In this document: piece after piece, positions 48,513 to 51,432 of the stretch | Layout: every line of letters begins with the position of its first letter | Position numbering within the stretch: position 1 is the stretch's first letter | Notes under the pieces: generated by a model | Told to the model about the DNA's origin: nothing | Database searches by the model: none | Seen by the model: the letters and a program-made list of their open reading frames with translations, nothing else | Assembly: GCA_046758505.1 (NCBI GenBank) | Contig: JBHIAH010000001.1 | Location: forward strand, 1 to 64,000 | Direction of reading: 5' to 3' | DNA length: 64,000 nucleotides | DNA from: Candidatus Methylomirabilales bacterium | GTDB lineage: Bacteria > Methylomirabilota > Methylomirabilia > Methylomirabilales > CSP1-5 | Made by a program: the position numbers and the translations under genes

Positions 48513-48536
48513 CTGTATACTGGATACAGTATACAG
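48513..48536. promoter_or_regulatory. Perfect palindrome, likely GntR operator
   Basis: CTGTATACTG-N4-CAGTATACAG just downstream of a minus-strand TTGACA (48549-48544). Confidence 0.75.
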
Positions 48537-49037: not shown

Positions 49038-49313
49038 CACCCCCTCATTGCCTTTCCCACATTTCCCTCGACGCACGCGGGAGCCTGCCACCGCGACCCC
49101 CAAAATAGAAACTGTGTCAGGCTCCTCTCGTTGTCAATAGCTCTGAACCACACAAGTCTCTCTGACCTGCAGTGTCCTCATACTCGTCGGGTGATGCGTA
49201 TGGAGGGTTGCCGGTCACCAGGGGGGAGGGTGCACGATTCCAGGTCACCGATGCGGCTTCGACCGACACCTCGAATTGCAGGCAGGATCGCGACAGGGAC
49301 TGGACCAGTTCGA

Positions 49314-49357
49314 AATCAGATAGTTACGCCCGGAGGACACCTGGCACGCTGATTGCT
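49314..49357 (+). promoter_or_regulatory. IHF-like site plus sigma-54 promoter
   Basis: AATCAGATAGTTA (WATCAR-N4-TTR) at 49314-49326; TGGCACGCTGATTGCT at 49342-49357. Confidence 0.75.
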
Positions 49358-49367
49358 ACGGTTAATA

Positions 49368-49456
49368 ATCGAAGGGGATCTCGATAGCCTCTCTCCTTCA
49401 AGATAGGGCCTCGGGGGCGGGCCTCTGACCCAAAGGGGAGCCCCCATTTTCTTTTT
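49368..49456 (+). ncRNA. Candidate sigma-54-dependent small RNA
   Basis: 5' hairpin GAAGGGGA/TCTCCTTC, 3' GGGGGC/GCCCCC stem with T-tract, no ORF. Confidence 0.55.
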
Positions 49457-49694
49457 GTCTCACCCGCCGACTTTCCCCCCCCTCCTGAATAAAAAAGGAA
49501 ACAGACTACTTTAATCTACAACATCATCTTGAGAGTAAAAGTCATATTCATACCTTATTCACCATGCATGCGTCGGGAAAGCACGAATAGCCCACGTAAC
49601 ATGAATGCCTGCTCACCCGTGCCAAGCCTTGGTGCAACCCCCAGGAACCTCTCCCTTGTTTCTGCCTAGCAAAGTCCCAGAAAGCCTCCTCCCC

Positions 49695-50029
49695 GAAAAA
49701 AAGAAAGCCCCGATGAAGCCTGCGGTCGGTGCCGAAGCTGCCGGACCGCCCCGCCGGTGAAAGCGGGACCATCGGGGCCGGTGGTGCCTGGGCCTTCCCA
49801 GGCAGCCACCCTGAGTTGTTACGGGTGCGCTGGCCTAGGAGGCCACCACCTCACAGATCACCATACATATTTCCACGACTGGATCACCTCCTCTCTCGGC
49901 GCACCCCACATCACGGGCCCAGTTCCCGTCAGCCCGAAACCGACCGCCGAAGTCGGCCTCGGACCTGGTCCGCCCTTGCCTGCCCCATTACAGGCGAGAA
50001 CGCGAAGGGGCCTGTGTCCACCCCAACCG
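49695..50029 (-). ncRNA. Candidate highly structured RNA containing a micro-ORF
   Basis: Bounded by a sigma-70 promoter and a GCCCCGATG/CATCGGGGC stem with T-tract; several internal hairpins. Confidence 0.6.
49835..49876 (-). CDS. 13-aa micro-ORF MEICMVICEVVAS
   Basis: Preceded by AGGAGGTGATCC at appropriate spacing; GTG start, TAG stop. Confidence 0.5.
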   Translation of the reverse strand: MEICMVICEVVAS

Positions 50030-50035
50030 CGCCGC

Positions 50036-50064
50036 ATCATAGTGCACTTGATCCAACCTGTCCA
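50036..50064 (-). promoter_or_regulatory. Sigma-70 promoter
   Basis: TGGACA-N17-TATGAT. Confidence 0.65.
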
Positions 50065-50412
50065 GCATTTCTTGCATCCCCACCCCAAATTTTTTTCCTT
50101 CCGACCACGTCCCTGACCTAGCGGATCGTGCACCTCTCCACTGGCTCCCCGAACTCTCGCCCCCGTCCGCACCGAAAGGTACATCGCACGCCTGACCCCC
50201 CGGCTTCATGGCGAGTCGCTGATGCGTCTTGGAATGAATCCCGAGCGCTTTATGGTAAGATGACGAACGAAGCATACGATATGGACGGCCTCCAAATTTG
50301 TTTCCGAAAATTACCCACGCGCTCCGGGACGAACCTGGGTTAGCTCTGGTGTGAAAGATGCACGACCGTTCAGGATCGCCGTCCATTACGCAATTCAAGA
50401 GGATCGGAGCGG

Positions 50413-51432
50413 ATGGACGTCACAACGGATACGGTGGCGCGTCAGGAAGTTGTCACGGCGCTCTGCCGCCTGGGTCTCCTGGACTCGGGCGAGACGCCGC
50501 CCATGACCGCGCTCCGGGGCGGCGTGTCGTCGGACATCTGGCGTGTGGAACTCCCCCGAGGCCCCGTGTGCGTCAAGCGCGCGCTGCCGCGGCTCAAGGT
50601 CGAGGCGGTGTGGGAGGCGCCGGTAGAGCGTAACGCCTCGGAGTGCGCCTGGATCGAAACAGTCGCCGCGCTCTATCCGGATGCGGTCCCCCAGGTCATC
50701 GCCCACGACGCGGAGGCTGGCTTGTTCGTCATGAGCTATCTCGACCCCGTCGATTATCCGCTGTGGAAACGACGGCTCAGCGAGGGGGATGCCGATACGA
50801 CGTTCGCCCGCCGCGTGGGCGCGACCCTGGCCGGCATCCACCGCGCCACGGCGGGCGATACCGGCCTGGCGGCGCGTTTTTCGACCGACGAGTTCTTTTA
50901 CGCCCTCCGGCTCGAGCCCTACCTTGTCGCCACCGGCCGGCGCCATCCGGATCTTTCGGCGGACCTCCAGACCCTGGTTACCGCCACGGCCGGGGTGAAA
51001 CGTGCCCTGGTGCACGGAGACATCAGCCCCAAGAACATCCTGATCGGGCCCCGCGGGCCGGTGTTTCTCGACGCAGAATGCGCCTGGTACGGCGACCCCG
51101 CCTTCGACCTCGCCTTCTGCCTCAACCACTTTCTTTTGAAATGCCTGTGGACGCCCCACGCCGCACAGCGTTTCCTGGCGTGTTTTACCGCTATGGCCGA
51201 AGTCTATCTTTCCGCCGCCGACTGGGAGCCAACGGCCGAACTCGAGGCGCGAGTCGCCCGGCTCCTCCCCGCCCTCTTCCTCGCCCGCGTTGACGGCAAG
51301 TCGCCGGTCGAGTACCTCACCGGCGAGTGCGACAAGGATCGGGTCCGCCGCGTGGCGCGGCCCCTGATTGCGGCGGCGCCCGGACGGCTTGAATCGGTGC
51401 GTGCCGCCTGGGCGAAGGAAATCGGGCCGTGA
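50413..51432 (+). CDS. APH/methylthioribose-kinase-like phosphotransferase
   Basis: GGVSSD, CVKRA, LVHGDISPKNIL, LDAECA.YGDPAFD. Confidence 0.9.
   Translation: MDVTTDTVARQEVVTALCRLGLLDSGETPPMTALRGGVSSDIWRVELPRGPVCVKRALPRLKVEAVWEAPVERNASECAWIETVAALYPDAVPQVIAHDAEAGLFVMSYLDPVDYPLWKRRLSEGDADTTFARRVGATLAGIHRATAGDTGLAARFSTDEFFYALRLEPYLVATGRRHPDLSADLQTLVTATAGVKRALVHGDISPKNILIGPRGPVFLDAECAWYGDPAFDLAFCLNHFLLKCLWTPHAAQRFLACFTAMAEVYLSAADWEPTAELEARVARLLPALFLARVDGKSPVEYLTGECDKDRVRRVARPLIAAAPGRLESVRAAWAKEIGP

What the first reader, a model, noticed from the sequence alone, without database searches (positions are those of the whole stretch)
49695..50064. Stand-alone structured RNA caging a 13-codon ORF behind a perfect 12-nt Shine-Dalgarno
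Seen on the minus strand: promoter TGGACA-N17-TATGAT; several hairpins; an 8-bp long-range stem GGGTGCGC/GCGCACCC enclosing AGGAGGTGATCC and ORF MEICMVICEVVAS (CxxxC); a second GAGGTG inside the ORF; a stop codon within hairpin TGGCCT/AGGCCA; then GGTG.CTGCCTGGG/CCCAGGCA.CACC and a multibranch terminator. No downstream gene is there to be attenuated. Inference: a ribosome-engaging ncRNA, a micropeptide mRNA or a type I toxin-like transcript. I cannot assign it to a known family.
Basis: partly seen in the sequence, partly recalled or inferred. Interest (0 to 1): 0.8.

Follow-up and report, generated by a model that had tools for sequence, protein, structure and literature searches.

The report
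Enlarged ribosome-docking small RNA with mini-gene
This is a real, separately transcribed RNA of about 330 bases that carries the genome's best match to the ribosome's mRNA-docking tail and a 13-codon mini-gene; it is an enlarged, uncatalogued form of a known small-RNA family (Ms_IGR-5 / rre type) whose function is still unknown.

Summary
Window 50029-49697 (-) is a stand-alone, structured RNA of about 333 nt with a conserved promoter and terminator.

It is not family-less. Its 3' 200 nt match Rfam Ms_IGR-5 full-length but below cut-off (35 vs 45 bits). Sister families of the same order carry one cut-off-passing Ms_IGR-5 per genome. This family carries only the enlarged form.

Features of the core:
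- An 18-nt complement of the 16S tail (14 Watson-Crick pairs in a row). It gives the best duplex of 27,268 SD-like sites in the genome.
- A mini-ORF of 12-14 codons. In 77 of 77 relatives it stops exactly three codons after GAGGUG.
- Helices that covary with the ORF's own nucleotides, so the "Cys" codon is an RNA pairing partner and not a conserved residue.

This lineage adds a 135-nt 5' domain, a covarying "cage" stem and an internal CCUCCU that masks the SD.

The pattern occurs in 170 of 251 genomes of the phylum and in other phyla. Contigs from RNA libraries of four studies cover only the RNA.

The best reading is a ribosome-engaging mini-mRNA whose translation matters and whose peptide does not. 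Its function is unknown.

This scan has reported the same kind of RNA before on other DNA. I rate it a new variant of a known kind.

The parts
50036..50064 (-). Sigma-70-like promoter, TGGACA (50064-50059), 17 nt, TATGAT (50041-50036)
   Evidence: 10 of 12 consensus positions. Both boxes are conserved in the 12 relatives aligned, while sequence upstream diverges.
49697..50029 (-). Predicted transcript of about 333 nt. The 5' end is inferred from the -10 box and the 3' end from the U-run.
   Evidence: Conservation starts just after the -10 box and stops at the U-run. RNA-library contigs of 4 studies cover 49708-50016 only.
49913..50024 (-). 5' domain found only in the enlarged form: hairpins P1 (50024-50007), P2 (50002-49971), P3 (49965-49931) and a small hairpin (49929-49913)
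   Evidence: pairs with changes on both sides are 5 of 5 in P1, 7 of 12 in P2 and 10 of 15 in P3. No Rfam match.
50012..50016 (-). CACAG in the P1 loop, the proposed partner of CUGUG (49856-49852) in helix alpha'
   Evidence: RNAalifold predicts it on A2 (columns 35-38 with 217-220, 17-19 of 19 paired). There is a compensatory change in G136 (loop GCAG with ORF CUGC). The homologous helix covaries in the small forms.
49899..49906 (-). Element A, GGGUGCGC, the 5' strand of the long-range 'cage' stem. It can alternatively pair with the SD.
   Evidence: I1; centroid; swap test; A:SD pairing 129 of 152 cells.
49879..49896 (-). Extended Shine-Dalgarno AGAGAGGAGGUGAUCCAG, which pairs with all 18 nt of the 16S tail CUGGAUCACCUCCUUUCU (14 contiguous Watson-Crick pairs, one G.U)
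   Evidence: -33.7 kcal/mol, rank 1 of 27,268 sites; the next is -30.5.
49835..49876 (-). Mini-ORF of 13 codons plus UAG, with a GUG start 10 nt after GGAGG
   Evidence: Frame, length and stop position are kept in 77 of 77 relatives.
49844..49852 (-). Internal SD-like GAGGUG and strand B (GGUGGUG), ending 9 nt before the stop codon
   Evidence: Invariant. It pairs with CACCACC (I7, 113 of 114 cells; swap test p 0.00015).
49831..49845 (-). Hairpin UGGCCU-CCU-AGGCCA holding the last sense codons and UAG. It contains CCUCCU (49842-49837), a copy of the 16S anti-SD that can pair with the SD.
   Evidence: 99 of 114 cells paired; variants GACCU/AGGUC and UGCCU/AGGCA seen. The centroid pairs AGGAGGU with GCCUCCU.
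49823..49830 (-). Element C, GCGCACCC, the 3' strand of the cage stem. It can alternatively pair with GGGUGGCUG (49811-49803).
   Evidence: (I1).
49780..49810 (-). Hairpin GGUGGCUGCCUGGG / CCCAGGCACCACC. Its 3' strand E (CACCACC, 49786-49780) is also the partner of strand B.
   Evidence: I6, I7; helix 10. Compensatory changes in L096 and L113 were read.
49696..49779 (-). Multibranch intrinsic terminator: outer stem GGCCCCGAUGG/UCAUCGGGGC enclosing two hairpins, followed by a U-run (49706-49696)
   Evidence: helix 11 94% paired, helix 12 96%; 5 of 10, 3 of 5 and 8 of 8 pairs change on both sides.

Best explanation
**What it is.** An independently transcribed mini-mRNA of about 333 nt. It is the local, enlarged orthologue of the Ms_IGR-5 small RNA and works like the 'rre' small mRNAs of alpha-proteobacteria.

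**Shown by computation here**
- It has its own promoter and terminator.
- It has the best 16S-tail complement in the genome.
- It has a 13-codon frame whose length and stop position are conserved, while its residues are not.
- Three family-wide helices use the ORF's own nucleotides:
  - alpha: a 5' ACA(N) element pairs with the codon before GAGGUG;
  - beta: GAGGUG... pairs with ...CACC next to the terminator;
  - gamma: the stop-codon strand pairs with a downstream strand.

**Specific to this lineage**
- A 135-nt 5' domain of three hairpins. The ACA(N) element now sits in the loop of the first hairpin.
- A covarying cage stem (A:C) around the SD and ORF.
- An internal CCUCCU that pairs with the SD.
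- The free RNA is predicted to switch between a closed fold and the family-wide fold. The two have equal predicted energy here.

**Inferred mechanism**
1. A 30S subunit docks through the single-stranded flanks of the SD.
2. It displaces the RNA's own anti-SD mimic and opens the cage.
3. It translates the tiny frame.
4. In doing so it unwinds alpha, beta and gamma, up to a stop codon that lies 9 nt after an internal SD-like site.

On this reading the biological output is ribosome engagement itself, or the refolding or decay it triggers (as reported for rreB), and not the peptide. What the cell gains is unknown.
For: **Identity**
- cmscan gives a full-length match to RF02471: 35 bits, E 5e-6.
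- In the same order, RF02471 scores 50-84 bits (over the cut-off) in f5 18 of 21, f7 18 of 20 and f3 1 of 1 genomes.
- f1 genomes have only this sub-threshold locus: 6 of 14 detected at E<=0.01, 25-33 bits.
- No cut-off-passing copy was found in 82 f9/f10 genomes that hold the large form.

**Conservation**
- 12 of 14 other f1 genomes match by DNA.
- The two-box pattern occurs in 170 of 251 genomes of the phylum, and in 83 of 104 high-quality ones. The reversed control pattern gives 1 hit.
- The large form also occurs in records labelled Binatia, Nitrospiria, Thermodesulfobacteriota and delta-proteobacteria.

**SD**
-.

**Translation rather than peptide**
- 77 of 77 loci stop 3 codons after GTG (TAG 61, TGA 11, TAA 5).
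- Start codons are TTG 39, ATG 25 and GTG 13.
- ORF lengths are 12, 13 or 14 codons.
- Codons 2-5 change non-synonymously within the genus, and one relative has an in-frame +3 insertion.
- The 'Cys' codon is GGU or GCU in f5, with matching changes in the 5' leader: CACA:UGUG 17, CACC:GGUG 15, CAGC:GCUG 2, one wobble and one mismatch among 34 sequences.
- In the matches listed I saw one synonymous codon (TGC, G136), and its P1 loop carries the compensating G.

**Structure**
-.
- Swap test for A:C: cognate -23.1 vs non-cognate -20.3 kcal/mol, p about 0.001, 16 lineages.
- Swap test for beta: -17.05 vs -15.25 kcal/mol, p 0.00015, 19 lineages.

**SD masking**
- P(unpaired GGAGG) is 0.05 here and at most 0.05 in 8 of 13 large forms. 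It is 0.21-0.97 in 10 small forms.
- Forced folds are isoenergetic: -168.5 and -168.3 kcal/mol (-168.5 and -169.0 with the 5-bp constraints); MFE -169.0.

**Expression**
- Contigs from RNA libraries of 4 studies, 90-95% alike, lie only within 49708-50016. Three of them join the 5' domain to the SD/ORF.

**Literature**
- rreB binds 30S, is weakly translated and is destabilised through its start codon (PMC5711450; abstract and sections 13, 18, 19 read).
- Ribosome footprints on MS_IGR-5 in two mycobacteria (PMC4974804, passage).
Against: - Nothing here shows that this RNA binds ribosomes or is translated. All structure and accessibility figures are predictions.
- The Rfam gathering score is not reached.
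- The SD core is predicted to be paired, and the start codon is a GUG 10 nt from GGAGG. Translation may therefore be very weak.
- GAGGUG and the residues E-V never vary, so a peptide constraint on those two residues cannot be excluded.
- The RNA-library contigs come from relatives, not from this organism. They cannot show strand or ends, and RNA libraries can contain DNA.
- The cage stem is missing in 4 same-genus genomes.
- In f9 the closed fold is favoured by roughly 5-15 kcal/mol (some partner sites were mis-picked there). Equal energy of the two folds is therefore not general.
- Counts across related genomes are not independent.
- The centroid tested was derived from the first row of that alignment.
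Confidence: 0.6

Rival explanations
1. It is a true micro-protein gene. The 13-residue peptide (consensus ...V-I-C-E-V-V-A-S) is the functional product, and the RNA structure only tunes its synthesis.
For: - The frame, its length and its stop position are kept in 77 of 77 loci.
- E-V is invariant in every form seen.
- Hahn et al. report conserved RreB and RreR peptides within their clades (PMC5711450, sections 13 and 18).
Against: - Residues 2-5 vary freely within one genus.
- The Cys position is Gly or Ala in f5, with compensating changes in a non-coding partner strand.
- Residues after E-V change together with the non-coding arm of the stop hairpin (V-A-S, V-T-S, V-P-S).
- Synonymous codons for C-E-V are almost never used: 1 seen in the list. 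This points to a nucleotide-level constraint.
- Synthetic RreB and RreR were unstructured, and overproduction had no phenotype (PMC5711450).
Confidence: 0.12
2. It is an untranslated regulatory RNA. Either it ties up the 16S tail of 30S subunits as a decoy or sensor, or it uses its CCUCC / CACC strands to pair with the Shine-Dalgarno sites of other mRNAs. On this reading the ORF is incidental.
For: - The best 16S-tail duplex in the genome.
- The SD core is predicted to be masked, so initiation may rarely complete.
- The RNA carries C-rich strands (CCUCCU, CACCACC).
- rreB sits mostly on 30S and is barely translated (PMC5711450).
Against: - An incidental ORF would not keep an in-frame start, in-frame indels and a fixed stop position with three different stop codons in 77 of 77 loci.
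- CCUCCU is absent from the small forms, so it cannot be the family's effector.
- Overexpressing rreB did not slow growth, which argues against simple titration (PMC5711450, section 19).
Confidence: 0.15
3. It is a cis-acting leader or attenuator for the genes downstream on the same strand (a 136-aa ORF, then the GntR regulator and the pyruvate:ferredoxin oxidoreductase genes).
For: - A GntR homologue lies about 420-490 nt downstream in 5 of 11 related loci.
- The RNA has alternative folds of equal predicted energy.
Against: - A strong conserved terminator is followed by a 594-nt gap.
- The neighbourhood differs in the other 6 loci.
- The neighbourhood was not compared in other families or phyla. 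Hahn et al. report that the genomic context of rre genes is not conserved outside Bradyrhizobiaceae (PMC5711450, section 18).
- The two alternative folds both leave the terminator intact.
Confidence: 0.05
4. It is a type I toxin mRNA.
For: - A small ORF.
- A sequestered SD.
- A highly structured transcript.
Against: - The peptide has only 13 residues, is not a membrane helix and is variable.
- There is one copy per genome in 170 of 251 genomes of a phylum, which looks like a housekeeping distribution.
- I saw no overlapping antisense unit, though this was not searched systematically.
Confidence: 0.01

Closest known systems
Rfam RF02471, Ms_IGR-5 ('Actinobacteria sRNA'; IGR-5 of M. smegmatis, between MSMEG_5794 and MSMEG_5795)
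   Same: - A colinear, full-length match of window 49901-49701 to model positions 1-184.
- The same module order: extended SD, ORF of 12-14 codons, UGUGAGGUGG, a stop 3 codons later inside a helix, middle hairpin...CACC, then a branched terminator.
- One copy per genome.
- Sister families in the same order have cut-off-passing members.
   Different: - It scores 35 bits (32) against a cut-off of 45.
- The SD lies about 138 nt from the 5' end instead of about 10 nt, behind a three-hairpin domain.
- It has extra elements: the A:C cage and the CCUCCU mimic.
- The ORF middle reads V-I rather than W-T.
- Rfam's consensus structure leaves the first 13 positions and the ...CACC strand unpaired. Helices alpha and beta found here are therefore not in the model.
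- The family is filed as actinobacterial, but here it is found in other phyla.
rreB / rreR small mRNAs of alpha-proteobacteria (Hahn et al., RNA Biol 2016/17, PMC5711450)
   Same: - A stand-alone small mRNA with its own promoter and terminator.
- Complementarity to essentially the whole free 16S tail.
- A weak start codon (GUG).
- A tiny ORF.
- Only the 5' flank of the SD is predicted to be single-stranded, as a possible toehold.
- Function unknown.
   Different: [quoted passage not shown] Here there are 14 perfect pairs (18 with one G.U), and the start codon lies one codon further on.
- The overlap of GTG with the complement is present in sister families f5 and f7.
- Sequence homology to rreB or rreR was not tested, because no rre sequence was in hand.
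- 30S binding is shown for rreB and not shown here.
Type I toxin mRNAs with a sequestered SD and standby site (tisB, zorO). These were seen as search listings only; the details are recalled.
   Same: A small ORF whose SD is buried in long-range structure within a long, structured 5' region.
   Different: - The peptide is far shorter and not hydrophobic.
- No antitoxin RNA was seen.
- It is conserved as a single-copy core gene across phyla.
prfB (RF2) programmed frameshift site: an internal SD-like element a few nucleotides before an in-frame stop codon (recalled, not tested)
   Same: An SD-like GAGGUG at a fixed 9-nt distance before the stop codon, so a terminating ribosome could re-pair its 16S tail.
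   Different: - No conserved extended frame follows the stop codon.
- The spacing and the shift site differ.
- This is a resemblance only.

Membership tests
Ms_IGR-5 (RF02471) | Covariance-model score at or above Rfam's gathering cut-off (45 bits) | tested here: not met
   35.0 bits, E 5e-6; 32 bits. No hit at the gathering threshold.
Ms_IGR-5 (RF02471) | Colinear match over the whole model | tested here: met
   Model positions 1-184 of 184 are matched, not truncated.
Ms_IGR-5 (RF02471) | Extended SD followed by a 12-14-codon frame running through UGU GAG GUG and stopping 3 codons later | tested here: met
   for the window. 77 of 77 loci, including about 60 actinobacterial ones.
Ms_IGR-5 (RF02471) | Orthology: a single locus per genome, replaced by nothing else in related genomes | tested here: met
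   - f5 18 of 21, f7 18 of 20 and f3 1 of 1 genomes hold members over the cut-off.
- f1 genomes hold only the enlarged locus.
- No tree was built.
Ms_IGR-5 (RF02471) | SD within about 10 nt of the transcript's 5' end | tested here: not met
   The SD starts about 138 nt after the predicted start. The promoter position is conserved upstream of the 5' domain.
Ms_IGR-5 (RF02471) | Helices alpha (5' ACA(N) with the codon before GAGGUG) and beta (GGUG... with ...CACC). These were defined here, not by Rfam. | tested here: met
   - Window: CACAG/CUGUG and GGUGGUG/CACCACC.
- Small forms: alpha 99.3% and beta 100% paired, with double changes.
- swap test.
rre small mRNAs (rreB/rreR) | At least 16 nt of perfect complementarity to the 16S 3' end | tested here: inconclusive
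   There are 14 contiguous Watson-Crick pairs, or 18 with one G.U. The tail was read in same-genus genomes because this genome's own 16S is cut at position 902.
rre small mRNAs (rreB/rreR) | The last base of the complement is the first base of a GTG start codon | tested here: not met
   - Window: CCAG-UC-GUG, so the start codon lies one codon downstream.
- The feature is met in f5 and f7 (CCA-GUG).
rre small mRNAs (rreB/rreR) | Binding to 30S subunits and start-codon-dependent instability | not testable with these tools
   Experimental features (PMC5711450).
rre small mRNAs (rreB/rreR) | Sequence homology to rreB or rreR | not tested
   No rre sequence was fetched.
Type I toxin mRNA | A hydrophobic toxin peptide (typically over 20 residues) and a cognate antisense RNA | tested here: not met
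   The peptide is 13 residues and variable. Antisense transcription was not examined.
Leader-peptide attenuator | A regulated gene directly downstream in the same transcription unit | tested here: not met
   A terminator followed by a 594-nt gap. The downstream gene is conserved in only 5 of 11 loci.

The most novel reading that the evidence does not exclude
The enlarged form is a ribosome-gated, two-state RNA device.

It holds a copy of the 16S anti-SD (CCUCCU) on its own maximal SD. It also carries decoy duplicates of three strands: A/D, B/D and CCUAGGC/CCCAGGC. The whole RNA can therefore flip between a closed cage and the family-wide fold.

The 135-nt 5' domain, with conserved loop nucleotides, would bind a protein or small ligand, or would read the state of the 16S 3' tail (free, matured or occupied). 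The RNA would then report the availability or integrity of free 30S subunits.

If so, the whole Ms_IGR-5 / rre class would be a cross-phylum ribosome-monitoring system, and not a set of micro-protein genes.
Probability: 0.12. Interest if true: 0.8.

Novelty: new variant of a known kind. Interest (0 to 1): 0.5.

Why it matters
RNAs of this kind combine the strongest possible ribosome-docking site with a tiny frame that appears indifferent to its residues. One of them sits in most genomes searched of this phylum, and they occur widely among actinobacteria and in several other phyla. Nobody knows what they do.

This locus adds three things:
1. The family is far wider than its Rfam label. The Rfam model misses a large, enlarged sub-family, present in at least 170 of the 251 genomes searched in this phylum.
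2. The most conserved 'codons' are held by RNA pairings: alpha, beta and the stop helix. This argues for translation-coupled refolding rather than a peptide.
3. The enlarged form masks its own SD with a 16S-tail mimic inside a covarying cage. That gives a natural test case for how a ribosome invades a closed docking site.

These predictions can be tested directly in tractable relatives that carry the small form, such as M. smegmatis or Streptomyces.

Tried and rejected
- ARAGORN found no tRNA or tmRNA.
- Rfam at gathering threshold gave nothing in the window. Other E<=10 hits (snoR160, TCV_Pr, CC2171) are chance.
- There was no Rfam match for the 5' domain or for the 100-170-nt insert of four relatives.
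- The DNA hits in G020 and G031 were read. They lack the SD and ORF and lie in ordinary sequence, so I dropped them as chance.
- Of the 80 loci, I dropped L040, L044 and L060 before the ORF census. They have no frame or a different one.
- The second weak RF02471 hit in this genome (C7, 17.5 bits) has no SD or ORF.
- Pairing of CUGGGCC in the 5' domain with GGCCCAG (78% of cells) is broken in L096 and L113 and shows no compensation. Not adopted.
- The 9-nt perfect complement between P3 and the inner terminator hairpin (I5) is not kept in f9. Left unexplained.
- CxxxC as a motif is not conserved.
- One search used a mis-counted column for helix gamma. It was repeated correctly.
- In one search the partner site for beta was mis-picked in at least L065 and L087. 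The f9 energy gaps are rough.
- The look-up of sequencing runs found only small shares (0.04-0.11), so no run holds this organism's own RNA.
- A look-up of earlier findings by sequence found nothing.
- Paper searches that found nothing on this family:
  - 'rreB' plus Shine-Dalgarno returned only Hahn et al..
  - Methylomirabilis small RNA returned 0 papers.
  - The peptide string of the mycobacterial form returned 0 papers.
  - 'Extended Shine-Dalgarno' plus small RNA plus 30S returned 15 papers. I saw the listing only, and none besides Hahn et al. appeared to concern this family.
- Supplementary tables of the mycobacterial Ribo-seq and sRNA papers were not opened and may list the ORF.
Full report
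**1. What is there**

- The promoter-like site TGGACA-17-TATGAT (50064..50036) and a terminator-like hairpin with a U-run (49721..49705) were found by the scans.
- The ORF at 49876-49835 translates to VEICMVICEVVAS*.
- The inverted repeats include:
  - the 8-bp GGGUGCGC/GCGCACCC stem joined to AGGAGG/CCUCCU (I1);
  - the hairpin UGCCUGGG/CCCAGGCA (I6);
  - GGUGGUG/CACCACC (I7);
  - the outer terminator stem (I3).
- The 332-nt RNA folds at -168.9 kcal/mol, z = -2.18; 4 of 100 shuffles fold as well.
- The unit lies in a 1.3-kb gap. On one side is a divergent kinase-like gene (50413, + strand). On the other is a same-strand 136-aa ORF that starts 594 nt past the terminator.

**2. It is conserved as a unit**

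- A DNA search of 40 relatives found it in 12 of 14 other genomes of the same family, f1.
- Two further short hits, in G020 and G031, were read and dropped as chance.
- In the alignment of 13 copies (it includes one unpublished genome, G007, and one copy cut by a contig end):
  - similarity begins at the -35 and -10 boxes;
  - it resumes right after the -10 box;
  - it ends at the U-run.
- Four genomes carry a 100-170-nt insert directly after the stop hairpin and lack GCGCACCC.

**3. Family assignment**

- Rfam at gathering thresholds finds nothing in the window.
- With E-value thresholds, window 49901-49701 matches RF02471 (Ms_IGR-5) over all 184 model positions. The score is 35 bits (cut-off 45), E 5e-6.
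- The decisive result is the search of the window's own order. RF02471 scores 50-84 bits, over the cut-off, in:
  - 18 of 21 genomes of family f5;
  - 18 of 20 of f7;
  - 1 of 1 of f3.
- In nearly every one of those genomes the hit is a single locus.
- f1 genomes show only the present locus, at 25-33 bits (6 of 14 plus the window's genome at E<=0.01).
- f4 (6 genomes), f6 (2) and f2 (1) gave no hit.
- In a class-wide sample of 151 genomes, no f9 or f10 genome (82 sampled) has a cut-off-passing hit. Nine have sub-threshold hits; the one I compared, in G071, lies at its large-form locus.
- So each genome has one gene of this kind, either 'small' (visible to Rfam) or 'large' (missed by Rfam).

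Earlier notes of this scan pointed the same way and led me to Hahn et al. (PMC5711450). I read the abstract and sections 13, 18 and 19 of that paper. The Rfam hit itself came from my own, before I read those notes.

**4. Distribution**

I read 80 loci and judged 3 to be chance.
- Most are Actinomycetota and have the small form.
- The large form (GCGCCGAGAAA-GGAGGUGRUCCAG ... GGUGAUCUGUGAGGUGGUGGCCUCCUAGGCC) is in records labelled:
  - Rokubacteria/Methylomirabilota (9 loci);
  - Binatia;
  - Thermodesulfobacteriota;
  - two 'delta-proteobacteria';
  - one unclassified bacterium;
  - Nitrospiria, in diverged form.

With the C-E-V codons left degenerate, the pattern is in 170 of 251 genomes of the window's phylum, and in 83 of 104 high-quality ones. 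By family:
- f1 12 of 14;
- f9 135 of 159;
- f10 18 of 21.

The reversed control pattern hit once. These tallies include four unpublished genomes (G007, G075, G216, G217).

**5. The ribosome-docking site**

- This genome's own 16S gene is cut at position 902.
- Six same-genus genomes and six others in the order all end ...GCGGCUGGAUCACCUCCUUUCU.
- The RNA's AGGAGGUGAUCCAG is a 14-nt perfect complement. It ties for the longest among 31 sites of at least 12 nt in the genome.
- AGAGAGGAGGUGAUCCAG pairs all 18 tail nucleotides with one G.U.
- Its predicted duplex is -33.7 kcal/mol, the best of 27,268 SD-like sites. The next best is -30.5.
- The other long matches are ordinary gene SDs or lie in coding sequence.
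- The A/G variation at GGUG(A/G)UCC keeps pairing with a U.

**6. The reading frame is selected; most residues are not**

In 77 of 77 loci:
- an in-frame ATG (25), GTG (13) or TTG (39) lies 7-13 nt after GGAGG;
- the frame runs 12 (60 loci), 13 (11) or 14 (6) codons;
- it stops exactly three codons after the GUG of GAG GUG, with TAG (61), TGA (11) or TAA (5).

Other observations:
- Within the genus, codons 2-5 change non-synonymously, and one genome has an in-frame +3 insertion.
- The codons after E-V change together with the non-coding 3' arm of the stop hairpin: GGCCU/AGGCC, GACCU/AGGUC, UGCCU/AGGCA, CCGACU/AGUCGG.
- In the list (all matches but 21), read by eye, only one match uses a synonymous codon in C-E-V (TGC, G136).
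- The neighbouring V-I codons vary: I becomes L, F, S or T.

**7. New helices that explain the conserved 'codons'**

The small forms of f3, f5 and f7 (34 sequences, alignment A3) begin about 10 nt before an 18-nt perfect tail complement. [quoted passage not shown]

*Helix alpha.* The leader tetranucleotide pairs with the codon before GAGGUG plus its first G:
- CACA:UGUG in 17 sequences;
- CACC:GGUG in 15;
- CAGC:GCUG in 2;
- one U.G wobble;
- one mismatch.

That is 99.3% of cells paired, with double changes at two of four pairs. The 'Cys' is therefore Gly or Ala in f5, so the nucleotides are what is kept.

*Helix beta.* GGUG plus the next 4-6 nt pairs with a ...CACC strand next to the terminator.
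- It is 100% paired in A3.
- It has lineage-specific complements: GGUGAUUG:CAAUCGCC, GGUGGCUGC:GCAGCCACC, GGUGGUCGCG:CGCGACCACC, and GGUGGUG:CACCACC in the window.
- A swap test over 19 lineages gives cognate -17.05 vs non-cognate -15.25 kcal/mol, permutation p 0.00015.

*Helix gamma.* It pairs the stop-codon strand with a downstream strand, 98.7% paired.

*Equivalents in the window RNA.*
- Alpha' is CACAG in the loop of the first 5' hairpin (50016-50012), pairing with CUGUG (49856-49852). RNAalifold predicted it on the cross-phylum alignment.
- G136, the one genome with CUGC, has GCAG in that loop. This is a compensatory change.
- G134 keeps the pair as G.U.
- G130 and G133 lose the outer pair.

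Rfam's consensus structure line leaves both the leader and the ...CACC strand unpaired.

**8. What the enlarged form adds**

*(a) A 5' domain of three hairpins plus a small one.* It is supported by changes on both sides in 5 of 5, 7 of 12 and 10 of 15 pairs (19 sequences, no unpublished genome). For the whole structure:
- 80.4% of cells are paired, against 74.1% in shuffles (0 of 500 reach it);
- 52 pairs change on both sides, against 30.1 in shuffles;
- the covariation score is 0.254, against 0.155 shuffled and 0.07-0.11 for slid partners.
- Caveat: the structure was derived from the first row of that alignment.

*(b) The cage stem A:C.* MAFFT misaligns it (64% paired). Each lineage nevertheless has its own complement:
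- GGGUGCGC/GCGCACCC;
- CUUGCC/GGCAAG plus GCGUGG/CCACGC;
- CCGGGCC/GGCCCGG.

The swap test over 16 lineages gives -23.1 vs -20.3 kcal/mol, p about 0.001.

*(c) CCUCCU at the end of the ORF.* This is a copy of the 16S anti-SD, and the centroid fold pairs it with AGGAGG.
- P(unpaired) of GGAGG is 0.05 here.
- It is 0.00-0.37 in 13 large forms, and at most 0.05 in 8 of them.
- It is 0.21-0.97 in 10 small forms.

*(d) Near-duplicate strands.* A and D, B and D, and CCUAGGC and CCCAGGC are near-copies of each other, which allows two global folds.
- Forcing A:C plus SD:CCUCCU gives -168.5 kcal/mol.
- Forcing B:E gives -168.3 kcal/mol (-169.0 with a 5-bp constraint).
- The MFE is -169.0 kcal/mol.
- In the other four f1 genomes tested the two folds differ by 0.8-4.7 kcal/mol.
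- In f9 the closed fold is favoured by roughly 5-15 kcal/mol. These values are rough because some partner sites were mis-picked.

**9. Expression**

- No public run holds this organism's RNA. The shares of sampled words were at most 0.11.
- I laid contigs of four RNA libraries from four studies.
- 12 pieces, mostly 90-95% alike, all fall within 49708-50016. None fall in 49300-49690 or 50041-50450.
- Three contigs (182, 178 and 151 nt) span the 5' domain and the SD/ORF, and end at 50009-50016.
- This is a weak hint that relatives are transcribed as one unit. Contigs show neither strand nor true ends, and DNA can be present in such libraries.
- From the literature:
  - MS_IGR-5 homologues carry ribosome footprints in M. 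abscessus and M. smegmatis (PMC4974804, passage).
  - IGR-5 is a validated, NAD-capped sRNA (bioRxiv 10.1101/2021.12.14.472595, passages).
  - The family is detected as an sRNA unit in two Streptomyces species (PMC8079986 and PMC8780764, passages).

**10. Neighbourhood**

- A GntR homologue follows at about 420-490 nt in 5 of 11 related loci.
- The 136-aa ORF follows in 1 of 11.
- The upstream genes are found in 0 of 11, within the 1.5-kb flanks held.
- This fits shared ancestry among close relatives. It does not fit a cis-regulatory link.

**11. Verdict**

The 'unknown family' reading is not. This RNA is the enlarged, Rfam-invisible form of Ms_IGR-5, and it works like the rre small mRNAs.
- Most likely (0.6) it is a ribosome-engaging mini-mRNA in which translation matters and the peptide does not. 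In this lineage the docking site is masked by the RNA's own 16S-tail mimic inside a cage.
- What the cell uses it for remains unknown.
- The scan has already reported RNAs of this kind, including enlarged ones, in other phyla. I did not check those reports.
- New here are:
  - the orthology argument within one order;
  - helices alpha and beta;
  - the description of the cage and mimic.

Noticed in passing
window 48513-48536: A perfect 10-bp palindrome, CTGTATACTG-TATC-CAGTATACAG, just upstream of the GntR-family gene (48479-47790, minus strand). The scan flagged it as terminator-like. It looks more like the regulator's own operator.
   Followed up: no
window 49104-49690: A non-coding stretch of about 590 nt lies between the RNA's terminator and the next ORF. 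It includes an AT-rich patch (about 49500-49570), unusual for this GC-rich genome, and a G-run (about 49470-49480). No Rfam match above noise.
   Followed up: no
L011, L012, L013, L014 (G001, G012, G003, G009) and public record L110: Four same-genus genomes carry a 100-170-nt insert right after the stop hairpin of the RNA. It replaces the 3' strand of the cage stem. No Rfam match in L011 or L012.
   Followed up: partly
L185 / L168 (G016, family f3): The best RF02471 score in the order (84 bits) belongs to a small form. Its peptide, MRIDLWTCEVAVT, is closer to the mycobacterial type (MIDLWTCEVAAR) than to its own order's forms. Transfer or a mis-binned contig is possible.
   Followed up: no
77 loci: The stop codon of the mini-ORF is UAG in 61 of 77 loci. 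That seems high for GC-rich genomes (recalled expectation). It may reflect the palindromic CUAG in the stop helix, or a link to release factor 1.
   Followed up: no
window 49939-49947 and 49722-49730: A 9-nt perfect complement lies between the 3' arm of hairpin P3 and the inner terminator hairpin (I5). It is not kept in family f9, so it may be chance or specific to f1.
   Followed up: partly
G160:C9:872364-875000; G054 contigs C39 and C40: Two genomes show two copies. G160 has two on opposite strands 2.6 kb apart. G054 has two at contig ends, possibly an assembly duplicate.
   Followed up: no
L110 (public record labelled Desulfuromonadales bacterium): Over the 116 nt shown, its RNA reads the same as that of a same-genus genome of the window (L014). 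The public label therefore disagrees with the placement of the window's genus.
   Followed up: no
whole genome G000: Long SDs are common in this genome. There are 31 sites with at least 12 contiguous complements to the 16S tail, including a 14-nt one before a secreted-protein gene on C5.
   Followed up: partly
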